Below are positions 2,021 through 17,679 of a stretch of 64,000 bases of DNA, piece after piece. The notes under the pieces are model-generated. The model worked only from the letters and a program-made list of their open reading frames with translations. It had not been told where the DNA came from and made no database searches. Both the position numbers and the translations under genes were made by a program. The stretch's first letter is position 1. Every line of letters starts with the position of its first letter. Source of the stretch: a virus; the IMG/VR virus record IMGVR_UViG_3300031227_000013; one strand, 5' to 3'.

Positions 2021-2044
2021 AAAAAAGAGGATAGTTCCTCTTTT
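2021..2044 (-). terminator. Intrinsic terminator closing the family A array (possibly bidirectional)
   Basis: AAAAGAGG-ATAGTT-CCTCTTTT inverted repeat with A/T runs on both sides. Confidence 0.7.
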
Positions 2045-2264
2045 AATATATTACGTAAAACCAGCCCGACTCTTCATCAAATATCAGGGCTACACATCCT
2101 GTATAAGACGATGCTTCTCCACGATTCTTTTTGTCATTAATATATGTAACTTCCATAGGTCTATTTATACAAGCTTCAGGATTATTAGATACATAATCTC
2201 CTACACTTATCTGTCCTTTATGTCTAACATGCTGCCCCATCTCATTATATAATGTACAATGCAT
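2043..2264 (-). CDS. Family A small protein, copy 1
   Basis: LYNEMGQHVRHKGQISVGD...GWFY. Confidence 0.85.
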   Translation of the reverse strand: MHCTLYNEMGQHVRHKGQISVGDYVSNNPEACINRPMEVTYINDKKNRGEASSYTGCVALIFDEESGWFYVIY

Positions 2265-2276
2265 AATAGCTCCTGT

Positions 2277-2501
2277 TTAACATATTACAAAAAACCAGCC
2301 CCGCTCTTTAACGAATGTCAGAGGTATACTGGGTCCTCCCATAGTTGACACCGCTTGTCCAATTCCCTTCTTGTTATTAACATATGCAACTCGCATAGCT
2401 GTTACGAAAAGACCGGGATTATCAGATATTGTATCTCCTACACATATCTGGCCCCTGTGTCTAATAAGTTGTCTCGTCTCATTATATATATTAAATAGCA
2501 T
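2277..2501 (-). CDS. Family A small protein, copy 2
   Basis: IYNETRQLIRHRGQICVGD...RGWFF; start reset to ATG 2501 after an AGGAG RBS. Confidence 0.85.
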   Translation of the reverse strand: MLFNIYNETRQLIRHRGQICVGDTISDNPGLFVTAMRVAYVNNKKGIGQAVSTMGGPSIPLTFVKERGWFFVIC

Positions 2502-2540
2502 AATAGCTCCTGTTATAAACACTATATATATAATATATAG

Positions 2541-2744
2541 TTACTTCTTAGTTTTCCATATCTTATTGACTTCTTTCTCTACAGCATGCTCTTCCAGCCC
2601 CACCTTACTCCAGCCCTTCTTGACTGTCCCTACTTTACTCCATCCCATAATAAAGGAATAGCCTATTGCCACAGACAGTAAGAAGATAGCGAGAGATAGG
2701 ATTATCCACGCTTTAGGGGGAACACTTTTAAAATCTATTTCCAT
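2541..2744 (-). CDS. Small single-pass membrane protein
   Basis: Hydrophobic stretch AWIILSLAIFLLSVAIGYSFIM; short GWSKVG repeat. Confidence 0.6.
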   Translation of the reverse strand: MEIDFKSVPPKAWIILSLAIFLLSVAIGYSFIMGWSKVGTVKKGWSKVGLEEHAVEKEVNKIWKTKK

Positions 2745-2827
2745 TGTATATTTCCTTTTTATATTATATAAATATACCCTTTGTAGTAACTTCTTTCAAA
2801 GATATTATGTTATCCGGGCTGTAAATA

Positions 2828-3043
2828 TTACTCCTGTCCTATATATCTCCAGCCCACTCTTTCTATAAACCTTATAAGATGTACACTGTGATCAGTGTCA
2901 TTCATATATTCAACTCCTCCTCTGTCTCCTGTTATCCGGACAACTTTGAGAGGAACACCGTAACACGTTACTTCATCTCCTACAACTAACTGACCTCTAT
3001 ATCTAATACATTGATTCATTTCATTAAACAGTTGACATGTCAT
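2828..3043 (-). CDS. Family A small protein, copy 3
   Basis: LFNEMNQCIRYRGQLVVGD...VGWRY; ATGA overlap start. Confidence 0.85.
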   Translation of the reverse strand: MTCQLFNEMNQCIRYRGQLVVGDEVTCYGVPLKVVRITGDRGGVEYMNDTDHSVHLIRFIERVGWRYIGQE

Positions 3044-3252
3044 GTCTTCCAGCACCAGCCCTTTCCTTCTATAAAATACATATGAAAGTTATATCCATTA
3101 CGGATATTTTTAATGTTACCTTTATCTTCTTTTAATCGGATAACTTTATAATCACATGTATTGTCTTCCTTAAAACGTATTATATCCCCCAGACAGATCT
3201 GTCCCTTATGTCTAACGGGCTGGTTCATTCTATTATACAGTACATATGTCAT
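3040..3252 (-). CDS. Family A small protein, copy 4
   Basis: LYNRMNQPVRHKGQICLGD...EGKGWCW. Confidence 0.85.
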   Translation of the reverse strand: MTYVLYNRMNQPVRHKGQICLGDIIRFKEDNTCDYKVIRLKEDKGNIKNIRNGYNFHMYFIEGKGWCWKT

Positions 3253-3461
3253 GTTCCATACCCCCAGCCCACTCCTTCTTTAAACTGTATACTATAAGCA
3301 TATTTGGAAAGTATATGTTTAATTTCACCTGTACATACCTTTAATGCGACTACTATGTAGTAATTGTCGGTGCCATCCTCAAAATGCACTAAATCCCCTT
3401 TACTGATCTGACCCTTGTGTTTAACGGGCTGTCCCAGTTCATTATGTATTAAGAACATCAT
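3249..3461 (-). CDS. Family A small protein, copy 5
   Basis: IHNELGQPVKHKGQISKGD...EGVGWGY. Confidence 0.85.
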   Translation of the reverse strand: MMFLIHNELGQPVKHKGQISKGDLVHFEDGTDNYYIVVALKVCTGEIKHILSKYAYSIQFKEGVGWGYGT

Positions 3462-3675
3462 ACTCTACTCCCCAGCCCCAGCCCGTTCCTTCTACAAACT
3501 GTATGAAGTAACAGTAGCTGGAATGCTTTAGTTTAATTTCAGCTATATTATCCTTTAATTGGATAACTCTAAACATACGGGTCCAATCGTCACTGAAATG
3601 CACTAAATCCCCTTTACTCAGTTGTCCTCTATGTTTAATGGGCTGCTTCATTGCATTATACAATACGTATGTCAT
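3442..3675 (-). CDS. Family A small protein, copy 6
   Basis: LYNAMKQPIKHRGQLSKGD...EGTGWGW. Confidence 0.85.
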   Translation of the reverse strand: MTYVLYNAMKQPIKHRGQLSKGDLVHFSDDWTRMFRVIQLKDNIAEIKLKHSSYCYFIQFVEGTGWGWGVEYDVLNT

Positions 3676-3901
3676 ATGACTCCCCCAAGAAGGACCACCA
3701 GCCCCAGCCCTTACCTTCTACAAAGTCTATATCCCATGTATCTTTATAGCGTTCAATTATGCCTATATCATCTTTTAGATTTATAACCTTATATATTATA
3801 TGTCCGCTGCTTATAAAATGTATCTTATCTCCTACACTAACCTGTCCCTTATATTTTATACGCTGTCCCATTTCATTGTACATCAAACTAAGTTTTCTCA
3901 T
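3656..3901 (-). CDS. Family A small protein, copy 7
   Basis: MYNEMGQRIKYKGQVSVGD...EGKGWGW. Confidence 0.85.
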   Translation of the reverse strand: MRKLSLMYNEMGQRIKYKGQVSVGDKIHFISSGHIIYKVINLKDDIGIIERYKDTWDIDFVEGKGWGWWSFLGESYDIRIV

Positions 3902-4119
3902 GTCGTTACCTCCACCCAGCCCGTTCCTTTTATATATCTAATACAGTAGTATACATTTTTATTCCGTGTGTTCTTAATCATACCTATGTTTTTCTTCAGT
4001 TCGATAACTTTATAATCACAGGCGTTGCTACTGGAAGTATAAGATACTATATCTCCTACACTGAGTTGCCCCTTGTAATTAATAGTCTGTCTCATCTCAT
4101 TGTATAGGCTGTATATCAT
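3898..4119 (-). CDS. Family A small protein, copy 8
   Basis: LYNEMRQTINYKGQLSVGD...KGTGW. Confidence 0.85.
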   Translation of the reverse strand: MIYSLYNEMRQTINYKGQLSVGDIVSYTSSSNACDYKVIELKKNIGMIKNTRNKNVYYCIRYIKGTGWVEVTT

Positions 4120-4331
4120 ATTACATACCCCCAGCCCGTTCCTTCTACAAACTTTACATCAAATAAATCCCCGTGCATTATATGTTTAATTGTACCTGTA
4201 TTTCCTTTTAATTTAATAACTTTATAATCACCGAAACTGCTGTTATTAGTGAACCAGACTACATCTCCTACACAGAGCTGTCCTCTATACTTTATAATCT
4301 GTCCTAGTTTATTATGCATTTTAGATATCAT
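4116..4331 (-). CDS. Family A small protein, copy 9
   Basis: MHNKLGQIIKYRGQLCVGD...EGTGWGY. Confidence 0.85.
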   Translation of the reverse strand: MISKMHNKLGQIIKYRGQLCVGDVVWFTNNSSFGDYKVIKLKGNTGTIKHIMHGDLFDVKFVEGTGWGYVI

Positions 4332-4543
4332 CTCGTCACATACCCCCAGCCCACTTTTGTAAAGGATACAGGGAATTCATCCCCGAGCTCTGTATATTTA
4401 ACTATACCTGTATTTTCCTCTAATTTAATAACTTTATATCCCCCAAAGTCGTGGGTTTTAGCGAAATATATTATATCTCCCAGACAGAGTTGTCCCTTAT
4501 ACTTTATAGGTTGTCCCATTTCATTATACATTTTAGTTATCAT
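4328..4543 (-). CDS. Family A small protein, copy 10
   Basis: MYNEMGQPIKYKGQLCLGD...KVGWGY. Confidence 0.85.
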   Translation of the reverse strand: MITKMYNEMGQPIKYKGQLCLGDIIYFAKTHDFGGYKVIKLEENTGIVKYTELGDEFPVSFTKVGWGYVTR

Positions 4544-4779
4544 GCCCTCGATCCTCCTTCTGATTCCCAGCCCCAGCCCACTCCTTCTGTAAACTCTACA
4601 TGGTCGTAGTATCTATACTTATCCCACGCATGTTGAATTGTACAGAAGCTTCCCTTCAGGTCCATAACTATATAATTACTGGCTATGCCCCCATCAGTGA
4701 AGTGTACTATGTCTCCGTTACATAGTTGCCCTTTGTGTATAAGGGGCTGTTTTAATGCATTGTATAGTTTGTATATCAT
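4540..4779 (-). CDS. Family A small protein, copy 11
   Basis: LYNALKQPLIHKGQLCNGD...EGVGWGW. Confidence 0.85.
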   Translation of the reverse strand: MIYKLYNALKQPLIHKGQLCNGDIVHFTDGGIASNYIVMDLKGSFCTIQHAWDKYRYYDHVEFTEGVGWGWESEGGSRA

Positions 4780-4970
4780 GTCAATAACCAGCCCCTTTCT
4801 TCTGTAAACACTATAGGCATTATACCATATGTATATTTAATCCTACCTTCATTTCCCTTTAACTCAATAACAGGGTGCATACCTCCTTCAAGGCTAACTC
4901 TAACCTTATCTCCTTTACATATCTGTCCCTTGTATCTAATGGGCTGTTTTAACGCATTATATATTTTCAT
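4776..4970 (-). CDS. Family A small protein, copy 12
   Basis: IYNALKQPIRYKGQICKGD...ERGWLL. Confidence 0.85.
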   Translation of the reverse strand: MKIYNALKQPIRYKGQICKGDKVRVSLEGGMHPVIELKGNEGRIKYTYGIMPIVFTEERGWLLT

Positions 4971-5164
4971 AAGAACATCCAGCCCCTTTCTTCTGTATAC
5001 CCCAGATTATATATATTGCTATGTAATCTGCTTTGTACTCTAGCTCTATTTCCTTTTATTCTAATAACTTTATAATTAAGACCGCTATCTGTTCCGGCGC
5101 GTATATAATCTCCTAAATCCAGCTGTCCTTTATACATTATACGTTGTCTCATATGATTATACAT
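4967..5164 (-). CDS. Family A small protein, copy 13
   Basis: MYNHMRQRIMYKGQLDLGD...ERGWMF. Confidence 0.85.
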   Translation of the reverse strand: MYNHMRQRIMYKGQLDLGDYIRAGTDSGLNYKVIRIKGNRARVQSRLHSNIYNLGYTEERGWMFL

Positions 5165-5379
5165 TATGCTTCTCCTCCCCAGCCCTGTCCTTCTACATAT
5201 TTTATATCACACGTATTGTGATCCATTATATGTTTAATTGTACCTGTATTATTATTTATGTTAGTTACCTCGTAATCAGGATAGTTCCAGTTTGCAGTAC
5301 CACTTACCTTATCTCCTACACTGACCTGTCCCTTATGTATTATCTGCTGTCTATTTCTATTGTATAGTCTAAAGCTCAT
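5164..5379 (-). CDS. Family A small protein, copy 14
   Basis: LYNRNRQQIIHKGQVSVGD...EGQGW. Confidence 0.85.
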   Translation of the reverse strand: MSFRLYNRNRQQIIHKGQVSVGDKVSGTANWNYPDYEVTNINNNTGTIKHIMDHNTCDIKYVEGQGWGGEA

Positions 5380-5575
5380 ACTGTCACCCAGCCCCTTCTT
5401 TCTATATATATTATAGGGTATATACTAAGCCTGTTAAGAAATTTAAGTCTACCTGTGTTCCCTTTAACTCAATAACTTTATGGGGGCAGCTACAGACGTA
5501 TACTGTATCTCCTACATCTAACTGCCCTTTGTGTTTAACGATCTGTCCTATCTCATTGTATATTCTATACATCAT
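5376..5575 (-). pseudogene. Family A copy 15, frameshifted (1-nt deletion)
   Basis: MMYRIYNEIGQIVKHKGQLDVGD...ELK in one frame and (G)NTGRLKF...IERRGWVTV* in another; span is 200 nt; break at TTAAAGGGAAC near 5460. Confidence 0.75.
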
Positions 5576-5576
5576 A

Positions 5577-5780
5577 TCACCAGACCCAGCCCCTTCCTTT
5601 TATAAACCTTATTCGGCGTACAACAGTACTGTTTAGGGATTTAGCTCTACCTACATATTTCCATATTCTATATACCTCGTAACGATCTTCGCCCCCACGG
5701 TTAAAATGTATCATATCTCCTTCACACAGCTGTCCCTTGTGTATAATGGGCTGTTCCAGTTCATTAAGTATATTACTTAT
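5577..5780 (-). CDS. Family A copy 16, intact frame but no ATG (ATA at the start position)
   Basis: ATA AGT AAT ATA CTT AAT GAA CTG GAA CAG... = (I/M)SNILNELEQPIIHKGQLCEGD...FIKGRGWVW*; 204 nt; missed by the ORF track. Confidence 0.7.
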   Translation of the reverse strand: MSNILNELEQPIIHKGQLCEGDMIHFNRGGEDRYEVYRIWKYVGRAKSLNSTVVRRIRFIKGRGWVW

Positions 5781-5979
5781 AGTAACACCAGCCCTTTCCT
5801 TCTATAAACATTATAGGGTGTTTACTCCCTATATTCAATACAAGAATCCTCCCTGCGTCTTCTCTAATATTCAGTACTTTTAAACTTATACCAGCCGGGC
5901 TGGTATATACTTTATCTCCTACACAGAGCTGTCCCCTATATATAATAGGTTGTTGCATTTCGTTATATAATGTAGTCAT
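5773..5979 (-). CDS. Family A small protein, copy 17
   Basis: LYNEMQQPIIYRGQLCVGD...EGKGWCY. Confidence 0.85.
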   Translation of the reverse strand: MTTLYNEMQQPIIYRGQLCVGDKVYTSPAGISLKVLNIREDAGRILVLNIGSKHPIMFIEGKGWCYYK

Positions 5980-6242
5980 CGTATACCCCAGACCTTTCTT
6001 TCTTTTTTAAGGATAAAATAAGGATAGTAATACGGGACTTGAGCCCCGTGATCCAGCATAAATCCCTGGTCATCTCTGTCTATACATATTTTATAGACTT
6101 TACTTACATGTTGCTTCATACCACCTACAAACATATTGTTCCAGCCCTTCTCGAAGCTCTCGCAGTCTCCTGTAACCAATACAGAGTCTCCTACCTTCAG
6201 TCCGGACGCTTTGTGTCCTTTCAGATATTCTTCTTTACTCAT
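5976..6242 (-). CDS. Hypothetical protein inserted in the array (KOW/SH3-like LKVGDSVLV motif)
   Basis: 88-aa ORF coupled by ATGA overlaps; lacks the family A N-terminal motif. Confidence 0.6.
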   Translation of the reverse strand: MSKEEYLKGHKASGLKVGDSVLVTGDCESFEKGWNNMFVGGMKQHVSKVYKICIDRDDQGFMLDHGAQVPYYYPYFILKKERKVWGIR

Positions 6243-6487
6243 ATTGTATACTCCCTTCTATATTCCCATATCCAGCCCCTTCCTCTTATAAAGAATATAG
6301 GTATTGTGTAGGCTGTGTTATTATACTGCAGATTTGCCTTAATCCCTTTTATACTCTTTATTTTAGCCGGGAGTATATCAGCCCTCCCCACAGACCATCT
6401 TTTTCTATATACAGAGTCACCATTATTCAGCTGCCCTTTATATAGTATGGGCTGTCCATTTATATTATGTAAAACTCCCTGTTCCAT
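6239..6487 (-). CDS. Family A small protein, copy 18
   Basis: LHNINGQPILYKGQLNNGD...RGRGWIW. Confidence 0.85.
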   Translation of the reverse strand: MEQGVLHNINGQPILYKGQLNNGDSVYRKRWSVGRADILPAKIKSIKGIKANLQYNNTAYTIPIFFIRGRGWIWEYRREYTI

Positions 6488-6518
6488 TAGTAGTCTCCTT
6501 TACTGTTGTATAGTAGTA

Positions 6519-6716
6519 TCAATAGGATGTTTGTATATACCAGCCCAACCCTTTTTTATATATTATAGGGTTTTTATCGGGACCTACATCCAGTATGATT
6601 AATGTACCTGTATCTCCCTTTAATGAGATAACTGTAAAGGTTATATTCCCCCACAGGGTAACACTCACTTCATCCCCTACACTTAACTGCCCTTTGTGTT
6701 TAACGGGCTGTCCCAT
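6519..6716 (-). CDS. Family A small protein, copy 19 (frame stays open upstream to another ATA-AGT)
   Basis: MGQPVKHKGQLSVGD...KGLGWY; upstream in-frame ATA AGT GAA TAC ATA TTA CAT AAC AAG. Confidence 0.8.
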   Translation of the reverse strand: MGQPVKHKGQLSVGDEVSVTLWGNITFTVISLKGDTGTLIILDVGPDKNPIIYKKGLGWYIQTSY

Positions 6717-6739
6717 CTTGTTATGTAATATGTATTCAC

Positions 6740-6964
6740 TTATAATTCGTGTATTAATAGCCAGCCCATCCCTTTTTCATGCTTTATAGTATATACCACG
6801 AAACTTAATTTATGTTCGACTATACCTCTATCTCCTTGCAGCCCAACGACTTCGAAAAAGAAATCCCTTCCAGGAGTTAAACTTACCATATCTCCCAGAC
6901 TAAGCTGTCCCTTATATACAATAGGCTGTTCCATCCCATTGTATAACATATGTCGTGTCCTCAT
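6740..6964 (-). CDS. Family A small protein, copy 20
   Basis: LYNGMEQPIVYKGQLSLGD...KGMGWL. Confidence 0.85.
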   Translation of the reverse strand: MRTRHMLYNGMEQPIVYKGQLSLGDMVSLTPGRDFFFEVVGLQGDRGIVEHKLSFVVYTIKHEKGMGWLLIHEL

Positions 6965-7176
6965 ACAGACACCCAGACCCAGCCCGTTCCTTCTTTAAAC
7001 TTTATTGTATGTACATCCCTATCCCAGGCATGTGTAATCTTACCTGTGTCTTCCTCTAGTTCTATTACTAAGTAATGGAAAGATCTAGTGGGATGAAGTA
7101 ATACTGTATCCGCTCTACTGAGCTGCCCCTTATATTTAATGGGCTGCTCTAACTTATTATATAATACCCTACTCAT
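6961..7176 (-). CDS. Family A small protein, copy 21
   Basis: LYNKLEQPIKYKGQLSRAD...EGTGWVW. Confidence 0.85.
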   Translation of the reverse strand: MSRVLYNKLEQPIKYKGQLSRADTVLLHPTRSFHYLVIELEEDTGKITHAWDRDVHTIKFKEGTGWVWVSV

Positions 7177-7177
7177 A

Positions 7178-7384
7178 CTAATATACCCAGCCCTTCCCTT
7201 TTATATATTTTATATTATATGTATTTGACGGGTTATGGTTGAATATAAGTTTACCTGTATCCCCTTCTACTTCTAACACTTCAAGATCAGTGCTATGGCA
7301 TCTTACTTCATCTCCTTTACAGAGCTGTCCCCTATACTTTATAACCTGCCCTAACTTATTAAACAACATATATTCTCTTCTCAT
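7178..7384 (-). CDS. Family A small protein, copy 22
   Basis: LFNKLGQVIKYRGQLCKGD...KGKGWVY; ATGA overlap start. Confidence 0.85.
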   Translation of the reverse strand: MRREYMLFNKLGQVIKYRGQLCKGDEVRCHSTDLEVLEVEGDTGKLIFNHNPSNTYNIKYIKGKGWVY

Positions 7385-7593
7385 ATCGACCTCCAAAACC
7401 AACCATGCCCTTTTCTATACCTTATAGTATAGTTTAAAGGGCGATAAAGATTTTTAATTTTAGCTGTATCTCCTTCCAGCTCAACGACTTTGTAAGAAAC
7501 AGTACTGGTAGATCTAAGGTATATCTTATCCCCTTTATTTAACTGCCCCCTGTGTTTAATGGGCTGTCCTATTAGATTAAATAACGGATGCAT
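7381..7593 (-). CDS. Family A small protein, copy 23
   Basis: LFNLIGQPIKHRGQLNKGD...KGHGWFW. Confidence 0.85.
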   Translation of the reverse strand: MHPLFNLIGQPIKHRGQLNKGDKIYLRSTSTVSYKVVELEGDTAKIKNLYRPLNYTIRYRKGHGWFWRSI

Positions 7594-7793: not shown

Positions 7794-7794
7794 A

Positions 7795-11834: not shown

Positions 11835-11857
11835 ATTTTCTACCATGGTAGACTTTT
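11835..11857. repeat. 23-bp palindromic-core motif, copy 2 of 4
   Basis: ATTTTCTACCATGGTAGACTTTT, intergenic. Confidence 0.85.
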
Positions 11858-11867
11858 TACTTCTAGA

Positions 11868-12143
11868 CTATGCAACTTCTTTAACAAGACATTCCAGTAC
11901 TCCGGGAGCACAACTGCATCCCCCTGTATGACACTCTGTTACTATGTACTCTTCACCATCTTCAGATTTTTCAATATCATAATGAAGGAGTTCATCATCA
12001 AGAGTATCTTCTTCAATACCGTTCCAACAGGATATCATTTCTTCGGGGCATTCTAGAAATTTCCAGTCAATATTTTGATCCGCAACATCTCCACGATCTA
12101 CGGCACGTAATATTTTGTTTACGAATTCTTTGTTTTTCTGCAT
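11868..12143 (-). CDS. Acidic hypothetical protein
   Basis: 91-aa ORF, C-terminal CHTGGCSC. Confidence 0.55.
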   Translation of the reverse strand: MQKNKEFVNKILRAVDRGDVADQNIDWKFLECPEEMISCWNGIEEDTLDDELLHYDIEKSEDGEEYIVTECHTGGCSCAPGVLECLVKEVA

Positions 12144-12159
12144 GATATGTTCCTTTAGT

Positions 12160-13398
12160 TTAGTTTGTTTTTAGAAAACCTAATGTCGTCATGTTCGCAT
12201 GACGCATTCCTTCGTAATTCTGATCCATTATAGTACAGCTGTTATCCGGAGCTAATACTTTGTTCAGCTTAGTTCCGTGTCTCGCTTTATTATTCAGAGT
12301 TATAAATACTAATCCGTCTTTCTCCGTATTATCAACCAACTTATTTATAGCGTCCCATCTCCTTTGTATTAAAGGTCCGTTATAGTCTAAGTGGCTGACT
12401 CTGAACTTGTTATGTATTTCTCCATCAAGAATAAGCTTATCGACATCTCCCTTTAAAAGAGGCATATCCATTCCCATATTCTTCTTAATTAAATGTTGTA
12501 GTATACGATACTGCATCTGATACAACTCAACACCTAAGCTATTTTCTATATCTATATTAAAGGCTTTCGATATACGTAGCAGTTCTCTGCCGTTTCCCGG
12601 AAGCGATAGGAAGTTGAAATCATTTCCCACATATTTACCGATAATATCAAACATCATCTCTGTCACATTCTCTTTACCGGGAGTAGAATACCTGTCATTA
12701 TCCTCGAGGAGAGTATTATATTTCTTGTTACTCCCACGGGAAGCTTTAAGGTCTATATAACATTTCCATGGACAGCCTTGTCCATTAACTACATGATTAT
12801 ATACGTCTTTAGTGAAAACAGTTTTACATTCATTACATATAATATCTGACAAAAAAACCCTATAGTTACCATACTTGTTCTTTGACGTTATACGTTTACA
12901 AATGGAATAATCATAATTAGTACCATTTATTTTTAAACCTTTCCTAATAATACTAAGTATTTTTGGCTTTCCCTCATTATCATAGCATACATGTGGACAA
13001 CCCTGCCCTTGTAAATGATTATCGGGTTTTTGTTTAAAAATATTTTCACATTCATTACATATTATTAAAATCTTTTTATGAATGCCTTTATATTTAGCTT
13101 TAGAATAACTATAATTATTACCATGTACTTTGAAACACCTGTTACGAAATTCTTCTTCAGTAAACCTAGTGCTCTTTGCCCAGCATCTTTTAGGACATCC
13201 ACCTGCAGAATTCATCAAATGGTTTTTAGGAGATAGTAGGAATTCTGTATGGCATTTATTACATATTATAAGTATTTTGGTAATCCTGTTTATATAAACC
13301 ATTCTTGAATAATTAAACTTATTGCCGTGTTTTTTTATAAAATCAGCTGTTGCCTGTTCTTGTGTTTTAGGCTTTGGACCTTTTCTCTTTTTAACCAT
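12160..13398 (-). CDS. Protein with three homing-endonuclease-type zinc-ribbon repeats (DUF723-like) fused to a putative SAM-methyltransferase-like C-terminal domain
   Basis: Repeats HGNKFNYS...ICNKC...GCP, HGNNYSYS...ICNEC...GCP and NGTNYDYS...ICNEC...GCP; C-terminal FLSLPGNG, GVE, HLDYNG. Confidence 0.55.
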   Translation of the reverse strand: MVKKRKGPKPKTQEQATADFIKKHGNKFNYSRMVYINRITKILIICNKCHTEFLLSPKNHLMNSAGGCPKRCWAKSTRFTEEEFRNRCFKVHGNNYSYSKAKYKGIHKKILIICNECENIFKQKPDNHLQGQGCPHVCYDNEGKPKILSIIRKGLKINGTNYDYSICKRITSKNKYGNYRVFLSDIICNECKTVFTKDVYNHVVNGQGCPWKCYIDLKASRGSNKKYNTLLEDNDRYSTPGKENVTEMMFDIIGKYVGNDFNFLSLPGNGRELLRISKAFNIDIENSLGVELYQMQYRILQHLIKKNMGMDMPLLKGDVDKLILDGEIHNKFRVSHLDYNGPLIQRRWDAINKLVDNTEKDGLVFITLNNKARHGTKLNKVLAPDNSCTIMDQNYEGMRHANMTTLGFLKTN

Positions 13399-13414: not shown

Positions 13415-13443
13415 AAAAGGGAGTGTACTTGTTGTACACTCCC
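13415..13443 (-). terminator. Intrinsic terminator
   Basis: GGGAGTGTAC-TTGTT-GTACACTCCC followed by TTTT on the minus strand. Confidence 0.75.
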
Positions 13444-13455: not shown

Positions 13456-14286
13456 CTATATATCCAATCCCCGCTCTTTCAGGGGCTCCAGCCCCAGTAA
13501 AGGCCTCAGATCGGAAGCCCATCTTATTTTTTTGTCCTTCCCGTACTTAGCATACAATTCTTTAATCCTGTCTTCATCCTTTTCAGTCAGCAATTCATTC
13601 ATCCTGTCCATATATGTAGCATCATTGTCCGTGTTGCGTTTTATACGGACTTCGGGATGACGTATTACCCCTATCCATATGTCTCTTGATGTTATGTTAC
13701 GGACATCTCTGACAACTGCTTCGATATTATTGTCGAGCATTGGAATCGTAGACACACTTGTATGAAATCCAGCTCCTGTCATATAGGTAAGACACGCTAT
13801 CCGTTCTTCATATTCAGGTGCTCCGGGTTCCCAGAAGTCCAGAATACTCTGGTCCTTAGAACCTATTGTAACTCTGATCTCGATATTTTTTTGATAGTCC
13901 CTCAGCCTATCAATTACTTTACGGGTACACCCAAGATTAGGCTTAGTCACCAGAAGAATCTTAGCTACAGCCTTACGCTCCATTATCTTCTTAATCACCT
14001 CAATACTGTAATCAATAGTGTTCTCTGTTATATCGTGAGTGTTAGGGAACATTATTGTTGCTGGCTTACCTATAAGTTTTATTTTTCCCGGGGCCAGTTC
14101 TGATAATATACTGGACATTTTACGGGGTGTCGGTATATACTTATTTTTACTATTTATCTGTTTTAACTGTAATTTACGACAACTTGCATAACAATATCTG
14201 CAACCATATTCGCATCCATTGAATGCTCCCATGTTAATATGACTCCACATATTAGCTCCAGCAGGTGTTCGTTTTACTTTTTCCAA
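13456..14286 (-). CDS. Radical SAM protein (spore photoproduct lyase-like)
   Basis: GCEYGCRYCYA (CxxxCxxC); LLVTKP and STIP motifs. Confidence 0.75.
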   Translation of the reverse strand: MEKVKRTPAGANMWSHINMGAFNGCEYGCRYCYASCRKLQLKQINSKNKYIPTPRKMSSILSELAPGKIKLIGKPATIMFPNTHDITENTIDYSIEVIKKIMERKAVAKILLVTKPNLGCTRKVIDRLRDYQKNIEIRVTIGSKDQSILDFWEPGAPEYEERIACLTYMTGAGFHTSVSTIPMLDNNIEAVVRDVRNITSRDIWIGVIRHPEVRIKRNTDNDATYMDRMNELLTEKDEDRIKELYAKYGKDKKIRWASDLRPLLGLEPLKERGLDI

Positions 14287-14330: not shown

Positions 14331-14573
14331 CTATCCAGAACTCTGACTGTCCCATTCCCAACCTCTATCTTTATTAAAGTATATTTTATATTTTGTAGGA
14401 TTTGTGATTCTACCGGTGTAACATATTACACCGATCCTGCCCTTAAGCTCTATTACCTTAAAATCCGGAGTTCCTCCGGGGCAACAGCTCACCTCATCCC
14501 CCATAGTCAGCTGTCCTTTATATTTAATGTATTGTCCCTTATAATTATGTAAAGAATTTAAACTCTTACTCAT
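14331..14573 (-). CDS. Family A small protein, copy 37
   Basis: LHNYKGQYIKYKGQLTMGD...DRGWEW. Confidence 0.85.
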   Translation of the reverse strand: MSKSLNSLHNYKGQYIKYKGQLTMGDEVSCCPGGTPDFKVIELKGRIGVICYTGRITNPTKYKIYFNKDRGWEWDSQSSG

Positions 14574-14584
14574 ATCTCCTCCCT

Positions 14585-14830
14585 TTATTCATACGAATAA
14601 CCTTCGTGATCCGTCCAGCGCCAGCCCTCTTCTTTTGTAAATGTAATATCATTCACATCGGTAGCGTCTACTTTGTTTTCCACTGTTCCCTTATTCTTAT
14701 TAATAGATCTTATAATCCCATGAAACATCGTAGACGGAGGAGGTGAATAATATATCTCATCCCCCACACTTATCTGACCCCTGTGTCTAAGGGGCTGTCC
14801 CAGCATATTGTATAACCGTTTTTTAGACAT
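14585..14830 (-). CDS. Family A small protein, copy 38
   Basis: LYNMLGQPLRHRGQISVGD...EEGWRW. Confidence 0.85.
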   Translation of the reverse strand: MSKKRLYNMLGQPLRHRGQISVGDEIYYSPPPSTMFHGIIRSINKNKGTVENKVDATDVNDITFTKEEGWRWTDHEGYSYE

Positions 14831-14844
14831 AATACCCCTTTCTA

Positions 14845-15234
14845 TTAAATAACTCTGAATACATTATTTAGTATCCACCATATCTTCTTACCTGTATAAG
14901 CCATCCAGCCCGTTCCCTCAATATACTTTAGACTATACGTATTAGCATTTCGTATTGCTATTCCTTTACTACCTTTTATACTGAATACGAACACCGTATA
15001 GTCATAGGGGGAGTAACCATATCTTACCTCATCCCCTTTAACCAGTTGCCCTTTATACTTTATAACTTGTCCTTTTTCATTAAATATATTACACATTCTC
15101 GCGTTAAAGACGTTAGTTATAGAATCCCGAACAAACTCCTCAACCACTAAAGCCAAAACACTTACACTGAATATAAGTGCAGGTAATATATAAAGACCTG
15201 TTCTAAGTAATAGAATTCGTTCTTCCAGACACAT
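14845..15234 (-). CDS. Family A copy 39, with N-terminal transmembrane extension
   Basis: LYILPALIFSVSVLALVV precedes IFNEKGQVIKYKGQLVKGD...EGTGW. Confidence 0.75.
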   Translation of the reverse strand: MCLEERILLLRTGLYILPALIFSVSVLALVVEEFVRDSITNVFNARMCNIFNEKGQVIKYKGQLVKGDEVRYGYSPYDYTVFVFSIKGSKGIAIRNANTYSLKYIEGTGWMAYTGKKIWWILNNVFRVI

Positions 15235-15269
15235 TGGGATTCCCCCCTTTCTCTTAATTTAATATATGA

Positions 15270-15467
15270 CTATTGAAATTCGAAACGCCGGGGACATTTA
15301 CCCGATCTGTTCATCCTTCTGCTTATACATCTTCCACAGAATATTCTCTTACGCACCAGACGTTTAAAGGCTTCTTCCGTCAAGCTGTTACTCACCCGTA
15401 TATTTCTATAACATTTATCGCAGTGTATTTGTACCCCTGAAAATTTTCTTGCTAACATCTTAAACAC
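15270..15467 (-). CDS. Small basic CxxC...CxxC zinc-finger-like protein
   Basis: HCDKC and FCGRC motifs. Confidence 0.55.
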   Translation of the reverse strand: MFKMLARKFSGVQIHCDKCYRNIRVSNSLTEEAFKRLVRKRIFCGRCISRRMNRSGKCPRRFEFQ

Positions 15468-16061
15468 TCACCTTTCTGTATCCTGTATATAGTATTCTCT
15501 TGTACCCCTCAGCTGTTCTGCATTATAAAACTCTCCCGACTGTCTATTGTAGAATGTATTGAGTATCTCAGGAGTAAAGCGGTATGTCTCCGGAGTAGTG
15601 TGGTATGTGGCAGGGATATTCATAGCAGCCATCATCTGATCTTGAGCGTGCTGTAAATACCACGCCAGACCATCTTTATACACCCAGCCCTTCCCGTCTA
15701 TAAACTCCAGATCACGCTTAATTCCTAGGAAGTTTTCCACTATCGTACAGTTATCTTTACATTCAATAACTATATACCTATCAATATCTTCTGAATTAAA
15801 ATATATAGTATCTCCTTTATTTAACTGTCCCTTATGTATAATTGGCTGCTTCATTTCATTATATACTTTCGTATATGTATAGTTCACAACGCTTACACAA
15901 TTAGTCTCCTCCGGCGTACTATTAGAAACACACTCTATGTGTCCCTGCTGATTTCCCAGAATTATAAAATTAATAATGCACCTCCATAATACTACTACTG
16001 AAGAAATCAAGATCAGAGCAGTTATTATAACTATTAATATATCTATTATCATTATATACAT
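15468..16061 (-). CDS. Family A copy 40, with N-terminal transmembrane helix and C-terminal extension
   Basis: Strongly hydrophobic N-terminus; internal VYNEMKQPIIHKGQLNKGD...DGKGWVY. Confidence 0.8.
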   Translation of the reverse strand: MYIMIIDILIVIITALILISSVVVLWRCIINFIILGNQQGHIECVSNSTPEETNCVSVVNYTYTKVYNEMKQPIIHKGQLNKGDTIYFNSEDIDRYIVIECKDNCTIVENFLGIKRDLEFIDGKGWVYKDGLAWYLQHAQDQMMAAMNIPATYHTTPETYRFTPEILNTFYNRQSGEFYNAEQLRGTREYYIQDTER

Positions 16062-16073
16062 TATAACTCCTTA

Positions 16074-16352
16074 TTAAAATCTAAATGTGACTGTGTCTAT
16101 GTTCATTGTTGTTCCATTAAGAGTCAGGCTCGGTGCACTCCAGTAACGGGAACCTGTATTCCTCCAGCCTTTCCCTTCTATAAATGTTATATCACGTTTA
16201 AACCCTACGAAGCTTTTTATTACTCCAGAGCCATCTTTACATTCGGTAACCTTATAAGGGGCACCTCCTGCCTCTATGTATACTATATCTCCTTTACATA
16301 TCTGCCCCTTGTGTTTAATGGGCTGCTTCATTTCATTATATATTATACTCAT
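16074..16352 (-). CDS. Family A small protein, copy 41
   Basis: IYNEMKQPIKHKGQICKGD...EGKGW. Confidence 0.85.
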   Translation of the reverse strand: MSIIYNEMKQPIKHKGQICKGDIVYIEAGGAPYKVTECKDGSGVIKSFVGFKRDITFIEGKGWRNTGSRYWSAPSLTLNGTTMNIDTVTFRF

Positions 16353-16355
16353 TAG

Positions 16356-16574
16356 CTATCTCCGTTTAGTCCACGTCCAGCCATAATCTTTTACGAACTT
16401 TATATCATACACTATACCTTTAGGACTTATGACTTCACCTATGTCCCCCTTAAGGAGACGTATTCTTCTTTTACATGACATATGTCTACCTTTGTAAACT
16501 ACATCTCCTTTACATAGTTGCCCTTTATGCACTATCCTCTGCTTATTTTCATTATACAGATCTCCAGTACTCAT
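16356..16574 (-). CDS. Family A small protein, copy 42
   Basis: LYNENKQRIVHKGQLCKGD...DYGWTW. Confidence 0.85.
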   Translation of the reverse strand: MSTGDLYNENKQRIVHKGQLCKGDVVYKGRHMSCKRRIRLLKGDIGEVISPKGIVYDIKFVKDYGWTWTKRR

Positions 16575-16849
16575 TAGTCCTCCTCCGAAGAAGACGACTC
16601 AGAAGAGGAAGAGGACATATCATAGTAAAAACTATAAGTAAGTTCCCAAACCCATCCGGACGTATCGAAAAAGTTCAAGACATATTCGGAACCTCCTCTA
16701 TCTCTACCGTTTCCATAAGCGCCGTTCAATCCATATACAACTATACTATTCCGTCGACGTATATCTGTGTCCAGGTATGCCATATCATCCACACTTAGCT
16801 GTCCTTTATACCTTATTTTCTTACCCAGTCTATTATATAAATTATTCAT
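16574..16849 (-). CDS. Family A small protein, copy 43 (Ser/Glu-rich tail)
   Basis: LYNRLGKKIRYKGQLSVDD...SGWVW; ends MSSSSSESSSSEED. Confidence 0.8.
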   Translation of the reverse strand: MNNLYNRLGKKIRYKGQLSVDDMAYLDTDIRRRNSIVVYGLNGAYGNGRDRGGSEYVLNFFDTSGWVWELTYSFYYDMSSSSSESSSSEED

Positions 16850-16885
16850 ACTTTCCTTTGTTTATAACAGTTAAAATTATATGTA

Positions 16886-17233
16886 TCATCTTCTCCCCCA
16901 TGTAGCCTGAACTTGCGGAGGAGGTGTATATCTGCGAGTTCCTGCTGACGCTTCATCGTCAGCAAGCCAGTAGGAACCATATGTGGCATCATATGTGCCA
17001 AACTCTCTTATTTCTTCATAAGGTGATAGAGTGGACCACTCCCAGCCATTATTTTTATCAAAGCTGAGATTATATATTTTTGTGTCCCTTTTAGCCCGCC
17101 CTAGCTTACCTATAACTTTTGTAACCATCAGAGGGAAACTGCTTGCCTCTTTATATACCGCATCTCCCACAGTCAGCTGCCCCCTATACTTTATAGGCTG
17201 CCTTAATCTATTATATAATTTTCCAGTATCCAT
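16886..17233 (-). CDS. Family A small protein, copy 44 (C-terminal extension)
   Basis: LYNRLRQPIKYRGQLTVGD...NGWEW. Confidence 0.85.
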   Translation of the reverse strand: MDTGKLYNRLRQPIKYRGQLTVGDAVYKEASSFPLMVTKVIGKLGRAKRDTKIYNLSFDKNNGWEWSTLSPYEEIREFGTYDATYGSYWLADDEASAGTRRYTPPPQVQATWGRR

Positions 17234-17246
17234 ATATTATCCTTTA

Positions 17247-17477
17247 TTAGTGACACGCTATTACCCAGCCCGTTCCTTCTATAAACCGTATATCATGTTC
17301 ACCGTAGTCCTCATCGATATCCCTTACAGTACCTTGATTCTCCTGCATCTTCTGTACGTCGAACTCACAGGGATCTCCTGTACCGCAACCAGTACATAAT
17401 ACCTCGTCCTTCTCATTCAATTGCCCTTTATACTTTATGGGCTGATGCATTCTGTTACTTAAAAGATAATTAGACAT
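17247..17477 (-). CDS. Family A small protein, copy 45
   Basis: LSNRMHQPIKYKGQLNEKD...EGTGWV. Confidence 0.85.
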   Translation of the reverse strand: MSNYLLSNRMHQPIKYKGQLNEKDEVLCTGCGTGDPCEFDVQKMQENQGTVRDIDEDYGEHDIRFIEGTGWVIACH

Positions 17478-17679
17478 TGTTGTAAGGACACCCCCCTTTA
17501 AATACCCAGCCCTCTCCTTTTCTAAATATTATAGGGTAGTGGAACATATTACCTGTATCTCCCTTTATTGTTACCTTATTAAAATGACACGCATGCTCTT
17601 CACACCTACAATTTACTTTATCCCCTGTGTTCAACTGCCCCTTGTGTTTAAGTAGTTGATTCAGATTATTTCTTAGCAT
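17470..17679 (-). CDS. Family A small protein, copy 46 (first in transcription order)
   Basis: LRNNLNQLLKHKGQLNTGD...GEGWVF. Confidence 0.8.
   Translation of the reverse strand: MLRNNLNQLLKHKGQLNTGDKVNCRCEEHACHFNKVTIKGDTGNMFHYPIIFRKGEGWVFKGGCPYNNV

What the first reader, a model, noticed from the sequence alone, without database searches (positions are those of the whole stretch)
2043..17679. Forty-six-copy tandem array of a ~70-aa protein with conserved ends and a highly variable middle
SEEN: 46 co-oriented paralogs over 15.6 kb share an N-terminal YNxxxQxIx(H/Y)KGQLxxGDxV and a C-terminal FxxGxGW(x)W. The central ~30 aa differ greatly between neighbours. Most are coupled by overlapping start and stop codons, and a promoter motif sits at the head of the array (17754-17778). 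I do not recognise the family; the GDxV...YxVxxLxGxxGxV pattern suggests an SH3/KOW-like beta-barrel. INFERENCE: this looks like a diversified library on one scaffold, such as host-protein binders, anti-defence decoys or toxin-immunity-like proteins, maintained by recombination between the conserved ends.
Basis: partly seen in the sequence, partly recalled or inferred. Interest (0 to 1): 0.85.

Follow-up and report, generated by a model that had tools for sequence, protein, structure and literature searches.

The report
Phage array of 46 small-barrel paralogs
An uncultured 185-kb phage devotes about 8% of its genome to 46 back-to-back, very different versions of one uncatalogued 70-residue beta-barrel protein; this is a real and unusually large example of the gene arrays already noted in big phages, and what it does is untested.

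Summary
A family HMM finds 46 co-oriented copies at 2043-17679 (minus strand). Of these, 42 are intact, 2 are frameshifted and 2 have ATA where the start ATG normally lies. Three more copies lie elsewhere in the complete 185,256-bp phage genome. Four independent metagenome assemblies carry the same array at 99.94-100% identity, so it is not an assembly artefact.

The family has no Pfam, PHROG, NCBIfam or PDB sequence match. In 1.84 billion representative proteins it occurs only in this phage and a few related uncultured phages, which also carry tandem runs. AlphaFold2 gives a confident six-strand SH3/Tudor/KOW-like barrel (pLDDT 92). Its best PDB matches reach only Z 5-6, which shows the fold class and nothing more.

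Copies are old (mean 35%, maximum 55% identity). The buried strand positions, a polar N-terminal loop and the C-terminal GW are conserved; exposed faces and two loops vary. Mosaic copies and one strain-specific junction patch point to occasional exchange at the conserved ends.

My best reading, at about 0.4, is a repertoire of intracellular binding proteins expressed before the late genes. Function is untested. Large tandem arrays are already reported in phages G and 121Q, and this scan found similar arrays on other DNA, so this is a new member of a known kind.

The parts
17754..17778 (-). Promoter-like motif CTTAAT-N17-CATAAT with a TGn extended -10, at the head of the array
   Evidence: Seven exact minus-strand copies in the window against a chance expectation of 4.3 for up to 1 mismatch on both strands. 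About 11 true copies (12 raw pattern matches) genome-wide, all on the coding strand and intergenic; one lies directly upstream of the dispersed family pair at genome 165886.
14331..17679 (-). Block 1: 10 family copies (17470-17679, 17247-17477, 16886-17233, 16574-16849, 16356-16574, 16074-16352, 15468-16061, 14845-15234, 14585-14830, 14331-14573) plus an unrelated 65-aa CxxC ORF at 15270-15467
   Evidence: HMM hits and ORFs. This block holds the atypical copies. Two have an N-terminal hydrophobic segment; in the 197-aa copy residues 2-36 model as a confident helix. Several have C-terminal tails, one of them Ser/acid-rich.
13456..14286 (-). Unrelated 276-aa radical SAM protein inside the array
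   Evidence: PF04055 at E 6e-9, 36.7 bits, above the cut-off; phrog_13321.
13419..13443 (-). Intrinsic-terminator-like hairpin (10-bp stem, 6 GC pairs, T run) ending the first transcription unit
11273..13398 (-). Unrelated insertion: 412-aa treble-clef/DUF723 endonuclease-like gene (12160-13398), 91-aa ORF (11868-12143), palindrome TCTACCATGGTAGA (11839-11852), 164-aa membrane ORF (11308-11802) and a terminator-like hairpin (11273-11305)
   Evidence: phrog_681/559 endonuclease; PF14311; DUF723 in the precomputed hits; palindrome and hairpin coordinates.
10349..11243 (-). Block 2: 4 copies forming a duplicated two-gene unit (11028-11243 + 10777-11028, and 10558-10776 + 10349-10558)
   Evidence: 76.6% nt identity over 304 nt at an offset of about 468 nt. 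A 47-nt exact repeat at 10516-10562 and 10986-11032. The downstream members have unrelated middles.
9545..10324 (-). Three unrelated small ORFs (123 aa with an N-terminal hydrophobic segment, 62 aa, 63 aa)
   Evidence: ORFs; no Pfam match.
8058..9531 (-). Block 3: 7 copies (9304-9531, 9098-9307, 8887-9096, 8690-8890, 8488-8688, 8265-8486, and the frameshifted copy 8058-8287)
   Evidence: Strain L022 differs from the window only by a 26-nt patch at 8471-8496, exactly at a gene junction.
8040..8053 (.). 14-bp perfect palindrome TCTACCATGGTAGA, about 25 nt upstream of the next copy's start
   Evidence: Eleven copies genome-wide, mostly in intergenic or gene-proximal positions.
6239..8016 (-). Block 4: 8 copies (7795-8016, 7593-7793, 7381-7593, 7178-7369, 6961-7176, 6740-6949, 6519-6776 with ATA at the usual start, 6239-6487)
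5976..6242 (-). Unrelated 88-aa ORF, not a family member
   Evidence: hhalign against the family profile gives 2.9% probability; no Pfam or PHROG match.
2828..5979 (-). Block 5: 15 tightly packed copies (5773-5979, 5577-5801 with ATA at the start, frameshifted 5376-5599, 5164-5379, 4967-5164, 4776-4970, 4540-4779, 4328-4543, 4116-4331, 3898-4119, 3656-3901, 3442-3675, 3249-3461, 3040-3252, 2828-3055)
   Evidence: Most junctions here overlap by 1 or 4 nt.
2541..2744 (-). Unrelated 67-aa ORF with a hydrophobic segment
   Evidence: no Pfam match.
2043..2522 (-). Block 6: the last 2 copies (2277-2501/2522 and 2043-2264)
   Evidence: They are sister copies in the tree (support 0.97).
2021..2044 (-). 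Terminator-like hairpin with a T run right after the last copy. It is followed by a different upstream motif (TTAACTAYAGGA) shared with the next gene but one in the head module
   Evidence: Sequence read; coordinates; the second motif occurs at window 2022 and 1096.

Best explanation
This is a lineage-specific multigene family with 49 copies in the genome, 46 of them in one 15.6-kb co-oriented array. Each copy encodes a single-domain protein of about 70 residues with an SH3/Tudor/KOW-like beta-barrel.

Shown here: the array arose by old tandem duplications of one-gene and two-gene units, and the copies have diverged to about 35% identity. The protein is under purifying selection for the barrel core, for a long polar loop between strands 1 and 2 (N5, Q9, K14-G15-Q16, D21) and for the C-terminal G-W. 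The exposed strand faces and two loops vary in sequence, length and charge. The genes are packed for translational coupling, and the purine-rich codons of the conserved C-terminal E/K-G-x-G-W sit just upstream of the next start. Transcription signals (a promoter-like motif, two palindromes, terminator-like hairpins) divide the array into several units and set it apart from the head genes downstream. Four copies are decaying, which fits birth-and-death turnover. Mosaic copies show occasional exchange with breakpoints in the conserved ends.

Inferred: the conserved loop plus the Trp form one shared site that contacts a common partner or ligand, and the adjacent variable loops and faces give each copy its own specificity. 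On this reading the array is a repertoire of intracellular binding proteins, made before the late genes, that act on variable host factors (host takeover or counter-defence).

Confidence that this is a real, selected, expressed-type gene family born by tandem duplication is about 0.9. Confidence in the binder-repertoire function is about 0.4.
For: Family and copy number.

Reproducibility in four other assemblies.

Restriction to this phage lineage: 65 hits in 1.84e9 representatives, of which most (38 exact, plus 5 near-identical strain variants) are this phage's own, 16 are true relatives and 7 are repeat-protein noise. Only own-lineage hits appear in the 5.8e9-protein set.

Relatives also occur in tandem runs: L009, L010, L019 and L024.

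Fold: pLDDT 91.9, six strands. Neighbours are SH3-like barrels at Z 4-5.9.

Selection on the protein: six invariant columns at 35% mean identity, and alternating conserved hydrophobic positions through the 'variable' middle. In the N-terminal segment pN is 0.27 against pS 0.64. Forty-two ORFs are kept open.

Variable surfaces: entropy above 3 bits and indels at columns 26-32 and 47-53; domain net charge from -10 to +12.

Coupling signals: junction gaps; GGAGG/GGGG-type sequence from the G-x-G-W codons within 22 nt of the next ATG; reduced pS in the C-terminal segment (0.42 against 0.64-0.70). Gly63 is GGC in 38 of 44 copies against 11% genome-wide; GGC is the only Gly codon that avoids making ATG, GTG or TTG with the following TGG (the explanation is my inference).

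Non-late placement: a promoter-like motif shared with the NAMPT-proximal region, the Ubl operon and the dispersed family pair; a terminator and a different motif before the head genes.

Mosaicism: and the junction patch in strain L022.
Against: There is no direct evidence of expression, of binding or of any partner. No copy matches any known anti-defence, toxin, immunity or host-takeover family.

Positive selection could not be shown. Synonymous sites are near saturation, and the few low-dS pairs give omega of 0.6-1.5 with a selection bias in how they were picked.

The population sampled is nearly clonal, so there is no polymorphism test.

The timing class of the promoter motif is inferred from the genes it precedes and was not measured. 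The phage has its own multisubunit RNA polymerase, so reading the promoter motif as sigma-70-type may be wrong.

Two copies carry membrane anchors and some carry Ser/Thr-rich tails, which fits a purely cytoplasmic binder model less well.
Confidence: 0.42

Rival explanations
1. The copies are nucleic-acid-binding or RNA-polymerase-associated small barrels, acting as specific transcription factors or chromatin-like DNA/RNA binders. This is what was proposed for the ~35-copy zinc-ribbon expansion of Bacillus phage G.
For: Most domains are basic (median pI 9.4). The nearest folds include KOW (Spt5/NusG), Tudor (including the UvrD C-terminal domain bound to the RNAP lobe), EF-P/eIF5A domain I and a PWWP-ssDNA complex. 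Two dispersed copies sit between the phage's RNAP beta-beta' gene and its beta' C-terminal gene, under the same promoter motif. For the phage G precedent see PMC7824862.
Against: Charge ranges down to -10 (pI 4.1), so several copies are unlikely to bind nucleic acid. No KOW, Tudor or S1 profile is matched. Structural Z values below 6 show only a common small-barrel arrangement. Two copies are membrane-anchored.
Confidence: 0.2
2. The copies are virion-associated or surface-displayed modules (decoration, adhesin-like or packaged proteins), possibly O-glycosylated on Ser/Thr-rich tails.
For: One dispersed copy (129 aa, Thr/Ser/Asn-rich tail) lies between two GT2 glycosyltransferase genes. Several array copies and relatives carry Ser- or Thr-rich tails. 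The array abuts the head module, and in relatives the N-extended members lie next to leader-tagged head-type proteins.
Against: Typical copies have no tail, no signal peptide and none of the MNK(I/L)AYY leader carried by the neighbouring head-module proteins. A terminator and a different upstream motif separate the array from the head genes. The array shares its promoter motif with metabolic and accessory operons.
Confidence: 0.12
3. The array is largely functionless expansion: tandem duplicates that filled spare headful capacity (the ratchet idea of Hua et al. 2017) and now drift, with only weak or selfish maintenance.
For: Four of 46 copies are already broken. The family has no relatives outside one narrow phage lineage. 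Divergence is star-like with no clear orthologues in related phages. Hua et al. interpret the phage G and 121Q arrays as genome expansion by duplication (PMC5646251).
Against: Forty-two ORFs of about 70 codons remain open in AT-rich DNA. Six columns are invariant across copies whose synonymous sites are near saturation, and pN is well below pS in the N-terminal segment. Start codons, SD-like sequences and overlaps are retained. Some clades mix copies of different phages, so diversity has been kept over a long time.
Confidence: 0.12
4. The array is a poly-immunity or antitoxin-like set: each copy neutralises a different toxin or exclusion factor, as in bacterial tandem immunity-gene arrays.
For: The architecture resembles known tandem arrays of diversified small immunity proteins (SUKH/Imm loci, PMC3113570, listed and not read further).
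Against: No toxin gene or toxin domain was found in or beside the array. There is no match to immunity families. The conserved polar loop shared by all copies is not what is expected of proteins that each fit a different toxin.
Confidence: 0.06
5. The copies are precursors of ribosomally made, radical-SAM-modified peptides, with a conserved leader and a variable core, as in multi-precursor RiPP systems.
For: A radical SAM gene lies inside the array. In two related contigs an NrdG-like radical SAM gene directly precedes family copies.
Against: The products fold as confident barrels, and the buried positions are conserved through the 'variable' part. Both ends are conserved, which does not match a leader/core layout. 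The radical SAM genes of the window and of the relatives belong to different types, and the relatives' type is absent from this genome.
Confidence: 0.03

Closest known systems
Tandem arrays of more than 30 similar genes in jumbo phages G and 121Q (Hua et al. 2017, mBio, PMC5646251)
   Same: A large tailed phage carries one co-oriented run of dozens of paralogous small genes, interpreted as the product of tandem duplication. Function is unknown there too.
   Different: The protein family is different: tblastn of a copy against 50,697 phage records gives no match. Hua et al. describe their copies as 'very similar', whereas these are old (mean 35%, maximum 55% identity). This genome is smaller (185 kb) and uncultured.
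The ~35-copy lineage-specific expansion of a zinc ribbon in Bacillus phage G (Iyer et al. 2021, Viruses, PMC7824862)
   Same: A lineage-specific expansion of one tiny single-domain protein in a large phage. Those authors suggest specific transcription factors or structural DNA binders, which is also a live rival here.
   Different: The fold here is an SH3-like barrel with no metal-binding Cys pattern, not a zinc ribbon. There are more copies here (46 + 3). The family shows a conserved polar loop plus variable faces, and mosaic exchange between copies.
SH3-like small beta-barrels: eIF5A/EF-P domain I, HEX-1, SAWADEE/Tudor, KOW
   Same: The predicted topology and size match. The best superpositions are Z 5.0-5.9, rmsd 2.2-3.1 A over 50-66 residues. 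The 'GD-x-V' entry into strand 2 is typical of KOW/Tudor-like barrels (my own knowledge).
   Different: No sequence-profile match to any of these families. Z below 6 is within the range the tool calls a common arrangement. The long conserved polar loop and the terminal G-W are specific to this family.
Multigene families of large eukaryotic DNA viruses (for example African swine fever virus MGF110/360/505) and poxvirus gene 'accordions' (from my own knowledge; no paper read here)
   Same: These are tandem paralog families in a large DNA virus, thought to tune host interaction and shaped by duplication, loss and recombination.
   Different: The hosts, folds and gene sizes are unrelated. Poxvirus accordions are recent, near-identical and copy-number-variable, whereas this array is old and was stable across five assemblies.
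Other giant small-paralog arrays found by this scan in jumbo phages (earlier findings e1-225236 and e1-5641439)
   Same: The same architecture: 32 to about 48 diverged, translationally coupled copies of an uncatalogued small protein, read as host-interaction repertoires.
   Different: Those are different families on other DNA. Those notes are unchecked by me apart from the cited paper.

Membership tests
Large tandem paralog arrays / lineage-specific expansions of jumbo phages (phage G, 121Q) | Dozens (30 or more) of co-oriented paralogous genes in one run in a large tailed-phage genome | tested here: met
   46 copies in 15.6 kb of a complete 185-kb phage record with direct terminal repeats. 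The definition is taken from PMC5646251.
Large tandem paralog arrays / lineage-specific expansions of jumbo phages (phage G, 121Q) | Homology to the arrayed families of phage G or 121Q | tested here: not met
   tblastn of a copy and megablast of the 16-kb region against 50,697 phage records give no match. The likeness is in architecture and does not extend to family.
SH3-like small beta-barrel fold (eIF5A/EF-P domain I, Tudor, KOW, SH3) | Five to six strands forming a small closed barrel that superposes on solved members | tested here: inconclusive
   The model has pLDDT 91.9 and six strands. Best matches are Z 5.0-5.9 over 50-66 residues. Foldseek finds no match at E <= 1e-3. Z below 8 may mean only a common arrangement.
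Pfam KOW / SH3_3 / GW / Tudor-type domain families | Profile match at or near the curated threshold | tested here: not met
   Each of 41 members was scanned. No family recurs, and the best single hit is KOW4_SPT5 at E 0.054, 13.8 bits against a cut-off of 27. A PDB profile search gives nothing at E <= 10. An SH3_3 amidase (P0066) appears only at E 8e-4, through three summed repeats.
Diversity-generating retroelement variable proteins | A reverse transcriptase with a template/variable repeat pair | tested here: not met
   No RVT_1 match in the complete genome, while the control genomes matched. The diversity lies between old paralogs and there is no VR/TR pair.
Capsid-targeted (leader-tagged) internal proteins, T4 IP-like | A shared N-terminal targeting leader, as on the adjacent MNK(I/L)AYY... 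proteins | tested here: not met
   Family N-termini are x-L-Y-N-x-M-x-Q and lack the leader seen at 2-361, 1140-1649 and 1662-2003.
RiPP precursor families with a radical SAM maturase | A conserved leader, a variable unstructured core, and a maturase linked in all loci | tested here: not met
   The domain is folded and both ends are conserved. The radical SAM genes differ in type between this phage and its relatives and are not consistently linked.
Poly-immunity loci (SUKH/Imm-type) | Adjacency to a polymorphic toxin, and membership of an immunity family | tested here: inconclusive
   No toxin domain in the ORFs scanned in or next to the array, and no immunity-family match. The rest of the genome was not searched for toxins.

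The most novel reading that the evidence does not exclude
The array is a virus-encoded recognition repertoire built on cassette exchange. Every copy keeps the same effector or anchor site (the invariant loop plus Trp). Recombination within the conserved ends reassorts the variable middles within the array and with related phages, so the phage carries and renews a panel of specificities against variable host factors such as defence systems. That would make it a phage counterpart of the multigene families of large eukaryotic viruses, or of cassette-based variation systems.
Probability: 0.15. Interest if true: 0.85.

Novelty: new member of a known kind. Interest (0 to 1): 0.58.

Why it matters
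Large phages repeatedly turn out to hold long runs of diverged copies of one tiny protein (phage G, 121Q, and other arrays seen in this scan), and none has an assigned function. This case is one of the largest, with 46 + 3 copies taking about 8% of the genome. It is also unusually tractable: the domain is small, is predicted with high confidence, has a sharply defined invariant loop beside hypervariable loops, and shows mosaic exchange at the conserved ends. If the copies prove to be specific binders of host factors, the family would offer a natural library on a 70-residue scaffold and a model for how phages diversify recognition without a retroelement. If they prove to be nucleic-acid or RNA-polymerase factors, it would show a new way for a phage with its own polymerase to organise transcription. 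If they are inert, it would support the idea that duplication is used to fill capsid capacity.

Tried and rejected
Assembly artefact: rejected, because four other assemblies are 99.94-100% identical with the same order.

Polyprotein or recoded stops: rejected. Neighbouring genes lie in different frames with 1- or 4-nt overlaps, and all three stop codons are used.

DGR: rejected, because the genome has no reverse transcriptase.

Known families: none. Pfam, PHROGs, NCBIfam and PDB sequences were tested with single members and with all 41 members. The PADLOC library was not run.

Structure libraries: Foldseek against the PDB and BFVD gave nothing at E <= 1e-3. The ESM Atlas feature search gave only unnamed viral clusters at chance-level scores, with KilR at 0.81. 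The 'atlas' fold library was not on the machine.

The 88-aa ORF at 5976-6242 as a distant member: rejected (hhalign probability 2.9%).

Wider relatives. A second profile that included the distant members found nothing new. IMG/VR scans with a copy, with P0062 and with the relatives' radical SAM gene found nothing. The metagenome scan found one contig, identical to L010. Four more distant phages that share the DNA polymerase have no family member in the records held.

dN/dS by region: uninformative. Mean pS is 0.64, and the low-pS pairs were picked from 946.

Population pN/pS: impossible, because there are only 1-3 SNPs per 14-20 kb.

Folding the 197-aa membrane-anchored copy without an alignment gave a poor model apart from the N-terminal helix.

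The 240-nt non-coding stretch at 17780-18020 as a structured RNA: not supported (z -1.4), and there is no Rfam family there.

I guessed that the ORF at the end of L019 is an NrdD N-terminus. Pfam did not support this, so I make no such claim.

Full report
**Observation**

The window is the minus strand of positions 82901-146900 of a single-contig virus record of 185,256 bp. The record has direct terminal repeats, and CheckV rates it 100% complete.

I built an HMM from 40 motif-bearing frames and ran it on every stop-to-stop frame of the genome. It finds 46 family units between 2043 and 17679, all on the minus strand. Full-length copies score E 1e-13 to 1e-29.
- 42 units are intact.
- Two are split by a frameshift (8058-8287 and 5376-5599).
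- Two encode the full domain but carry ATA where the start ATG normally lies (5577-5801 and 6519-6776).
- Three more copies lie elsewhere in the genome, at 21657-22043, 165886-166206 and 166222-166686.

The array is not continuous. Ten unrelated ORFs interrupt it in five places:
- a CxxC mini-ORF (15270-15467);
- a 3-kb block with a radical SAM protein, a treble-clef/DUF723 endonuclease-like protein, a 91-aa ORF and a 164-aa membrane ORF;
- three small ORFs at 9545-10324;
- an 88-aa ORF at 5976-6242;
- a 67-aa hydrophobic ORF at 2541-2744.

**Not an artefact**

Contigs from four other assemblies cover the array at 99.94-100% identity with identical gene order: L007 from ERZ27315523 (185,140 bp), L008, L022 from ERZ27316532 (185,120 bp) and L023. 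The two frameshifted copies are broken in those assemblies too.

**The family**

- No member matches Pfam, PHROGs or NCBIfam. When all 41 aligned members are scanned one by one, no family recurs.
- The profile matches no PDB sequence at E <= 10.
- A copy finds nothing by tblastn in 50,697 phage records, and the 16-kb region finds nothing by megablast.
- A profile search that reads all 1.84 billion representative proteins returns 65 hits. By exact look-up, most are this phage's own copies or near-identical strain variants. Sixteen are true relatives. The rest are long repeat proteins hit through summed short stretches (cadherin-like, SH3_3 and similar).
- The true relatives all come from short uncultured contigs of the same ENA assembly series, one Logan run and one JGI contig. 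They also occur in tandem: four copies on a 584-bp contig (L009), three or more in L010/L024, and seven in 2.1 kb of L019.
- A phage sharing 60% DNA-polymerase identity comes from IMG metagenome 3300031227, which is an Ace Lake (Antarctica) sample. Four more distant polymerase relatives have no family member in the records held.

**Fold and conservation**

With the 41 paralogs as alignment, AlphaFold2 gives a six-strand all-beta model with mean pLDDT 91.9 and pTM 0.79. Foldseek finds nothing at E <= 1e-3 in the PDB or BFVD. The exhaustive VIA-align search and the second look both rank SH3-like small barrels first: HEX-1, eIF5A and EF-P domain I, SAWADEE, Tudor and KOW, at Z 4-5.9, rmsd 2.2-3.1 A over 50-66 residues. 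By the tool's own calibration this establishes a fold class and does not show homology.

Column statistics over the 44 full-length units show what 'conserved ends, variable middle' means in detail.
- N5, G15, Q16, D21, G63 and W64 are invariant, and Q9 is present in 43 of 44.
- Within the 'variable' part, every second strand position stays hydrophobic or Gly (Y33, V35, L38, G40, G43, I45, Y54, I56, F58).
- The alternate positions and two loops (columns 26-32 and 47-53) exceed 3 bits of entropy and carry indels.

This is the signature of a folded barrel with a conserved core and free surfaces.

The most conserved stretch (columns 5-21) is mostly non-regular in the model. It lies between strands 1 and 2, where the RT loop lies in SH3 domains (the comparison is from my own knowledge). 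I infer that it forms one exposed site together with the terminal Trp, flanked by the hypervariable loop. I could not check this on coordinates. Domain net charge runs from -10 to +12, with a median pI of 9.4.

**Age and mode of evolution**

- Pairwise identity averages 35% and never exceeds 55%. Neighbours are slightly more alike than distant copies (39% at rank distance 1, 33% at 30; Mantel-type p = 0.001).
- A two-gene unit was duplicated: 11028+10777 and 10558+10349, 76.6% identity over 304 nt.
- Synonymous differences are near saturation (mean pS 0.64). pN is 0.27 in the N-terminal segment and 0.57 in the middle. So purifying selection on the conserved segment is clear, but positive selection in the middle cannot be tested. 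The few low-pS pairs give omega of 0.6-1.5 and were picked from 946.
- In a tree that includes the relatives, some supported clades mix copies from different phages, and the N-terminally extended relatives form their own clade. No clear one-to-one orthologues appear. The diversity is therefore old.

**Recombination**

Similarity in the three segments is nearly uncorrelated across pairs (r = 0.10 for N against middle, 0.29 for C against middle).
- The pair 10777/10349 has the highest N-segment identity of all 946 pairs (86%). It shares 37 exact aligned nucleotides, or 47 when the junction is included. Its middles are as unlike as random pairs (36%, rank 688).
- 8690/8488 shows the same pattern at the C-terminal end (91% against 36%).
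- Exact runs of at least 20 nt occur in 18 pairs, against 4.3 +/- 2.0 (maximum 12) in a null that keeps per-column conservation. The longest run exceeds all 200 null sets.
- Strain L022 is identical to the window over 17.7 kb except for a 26-nt patch at 8471-8496. The patch holds 14 differences including a 6-nt insertion, sits exactly at a gene junction and rewrites both the end of one copy and the start of the next. No donor of 16 nt or more exists in this genome.

Exchange with breakpoints in the conserved ends therefore happens. It is rare, and it did not change copy number in the five assemblies seen.

**Expression signals**

- The motif at 17754-17778 reads CTTAAT, a 17-nt spacer, then CATAAT preceded by TGn.
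- It has 7 exact minus-strand copies in the window and about 11 true copies in the genome, all on the coding strand. One lies directly upstream of the dispersed family pair, which sits between the phage's RNA polymerase genes.
- Other copies precede accessory operons. None precedes the head-module genes seen here. Those genes follow a terminator-like hairpin at 2021-2044 and share a different motif.
- Inside the array there is a strong terminator at 13419-13443 and a terminator-like hairpin at 11273-11305.
- There are also two copies of a 14-bp palindrome that occurs 11 times in the genome.

The array is therefore several transcription units of a non-late type. Timing is inferred and was not measured.

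**Junctions and codon bias**

- 27 of 44 family-family junctions overlap or are within 1 nt.
- The purine-rich codons of the conserved E/K-G-x-G-W lie within about 20 nt of the next ATG.
- Synonymous divergence is lower in that segment (pS 0.42).
- Gly63 uses GGC in 38 of 44 copies, although GGC is the rarest Gly codon in the genome (11%). GGC is the only Gly codon that does not create ATG, GTG or TTG with the following TGG, just downstream of an SD-like sequence. I propose that this explains the bias.

**Reading**

Shown: a real, selected, lineage-restricted multigene family of small barrels, produced by old tandem duplication with birth-and-death turnover and occasional mosaic exchange, and organised for coupled translation in non-late units.

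Inferred: a repertoire of binding proteins with one common site and copy-specific surfaces, acting inside the infected cell on variable host factors (about 0.4).

Rivals:
- Nucleic-acid or RNA-polymerase factors. This fits the basic bias, the fold neighbours, the pair between the polymerase genes and the phage G precedent in PMC7824862. Acidic and membrane-anchored copies count against it.
- Virion or glycosylated surface modules. One copy with a Ser/Thr tail lies between two glycosyltransferases, and tails occur on other members. The missing leader, the shared promoter class and the terminator count against it.
- Near-neutral genome filler, after the duplication idea of PMC5646251. Against it: 42 ORFs are kept open, and six columns stay invariant while synonymous sites are near saturation.
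- Poly-immunity.
- RiPP precursors.

The last two have little support.

**Comparison with what is known**

Hua et al. report tandem arrays of more than 30 genes in phages G and 121Q. Iyer et al. describe a ~35-copy zinc-ribbon expansion in phage G. Earlier notes of this scan list similar arrays in other jumbo phages. So the kind is known, and this is a new and large member with a new family. It adds a confident fold, a sharply bipartite conservation pattern and evidence for exchange at the conserved ends.

Complex prediction and the atlas fold library were unavailable, so oligomerisation is untested.

Noticed in passing
window 25112-26233 (-): A 373-aa protein matches phrog_1211, annotated '2-aminooxy adenylosuccinate synthetase' (PurZ-type), at E 3e-51. 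The phage may replace adenine with 2-aminoadenine in its DNA.
   Followed up: no
window 8040-8053, 11839-11852, 37358-37371, 42708-42721, and 7 more places in the genome: A perfect 14-bp palindrome TCTACCATGGTAGA, usually within AAAAG...AAAAT, occurs 11 times in the genome, mostly 20-45 nt upstream of a start codon. It could be an operator, a second promoter class or a processing site.
   Followed up: partly
window 17754-17778, 18026-18050, 18826-18850, 19014-19038, 30286-30310, 44494-44518, 49964-49988: The promoter-like motif (T-run)-agCTACTTAATtaa-N-TTGGCAtTATA has about 11 true copies genome-wide, all on one strand. Four lie within 1.3 kb just upstream of the array, and two of these bound short stretches with no convincing ORF.
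   Followed up: partly
window 17780-18020 (-): A GC-richer 240-nt stretch between two promoter motifs; its 86-aa 'ORF' looks non-coding. The fold z-score is only -1.4 and there is no Rfam family, so a structured RNA is not supported.
   Followed up: yes
L017:1211-7207 and L017:11012-13300 (genome 159210-165206 and 169011-171299): The phage encodes a multisubunit-type RNA polymerase. One gene is a 1998-aa beta-beta' fusion carrying a LAGLIDADG endonuclease insert. The other is a 762-aa beta' C-terminal part with a Hint fragment. Two family copies lie between them.
   Followed up: partly
window 2-361, 1140-1649, 1662-2003 (-): Three otherwise unrelated proteins just downstream of the array begin MNK(I/L)AYY(E/Q)GYMNK. 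One is DUF5661-like. The same leader occurs on head-module-type proteins in related contigs.
   Followed up: no
window 12160-13398 (-): A 412-aa treble-clef/DUF723 endonuclease-like gene lies directly after a strong terminator and inside the array. It looks like a mobile insertion.
   Followed up: no
column 63 of the family alignment (Gly before the invariant Trp), all copies: The Gly codon is GGC in 38 of 44 copies against 11% genome-wide. GGC is the only Gly codon that avoids creating ATG, GTG or TTG with the next codon TGG, downstream of an SD-like sequence.
   Followed up: partly
L022:7735-7785, against window 8471-8496: One strain differs from the window by a 26-nt multi-substitution patch with a 6-nt insertion, exactly at a gene junction, in an otherwise identical 17.7 kb. 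No donor is present in this genome.
   Followed up: yes
window 47786-48040 (-): A group I intron (Rfam RF00028, 58.9 bits, E 2e-12).
   Followed up: no
L010:444-929 and L020:2594-3094: In two related contigs an NrdG-like radical SAM activase (Fer4_12 + Radical_SAM; the two are 51% identical) heads the run of family copies. No homologue is found in this genome.
   Followed up: partly
L018:6961-8805 (genome 20960-22804): The dispersed 129-aa family copy with a Thr/Ser/Asn-rich tail is flanked on both sides by GT2 glycosyltransferase genes.
   Followed up: partly
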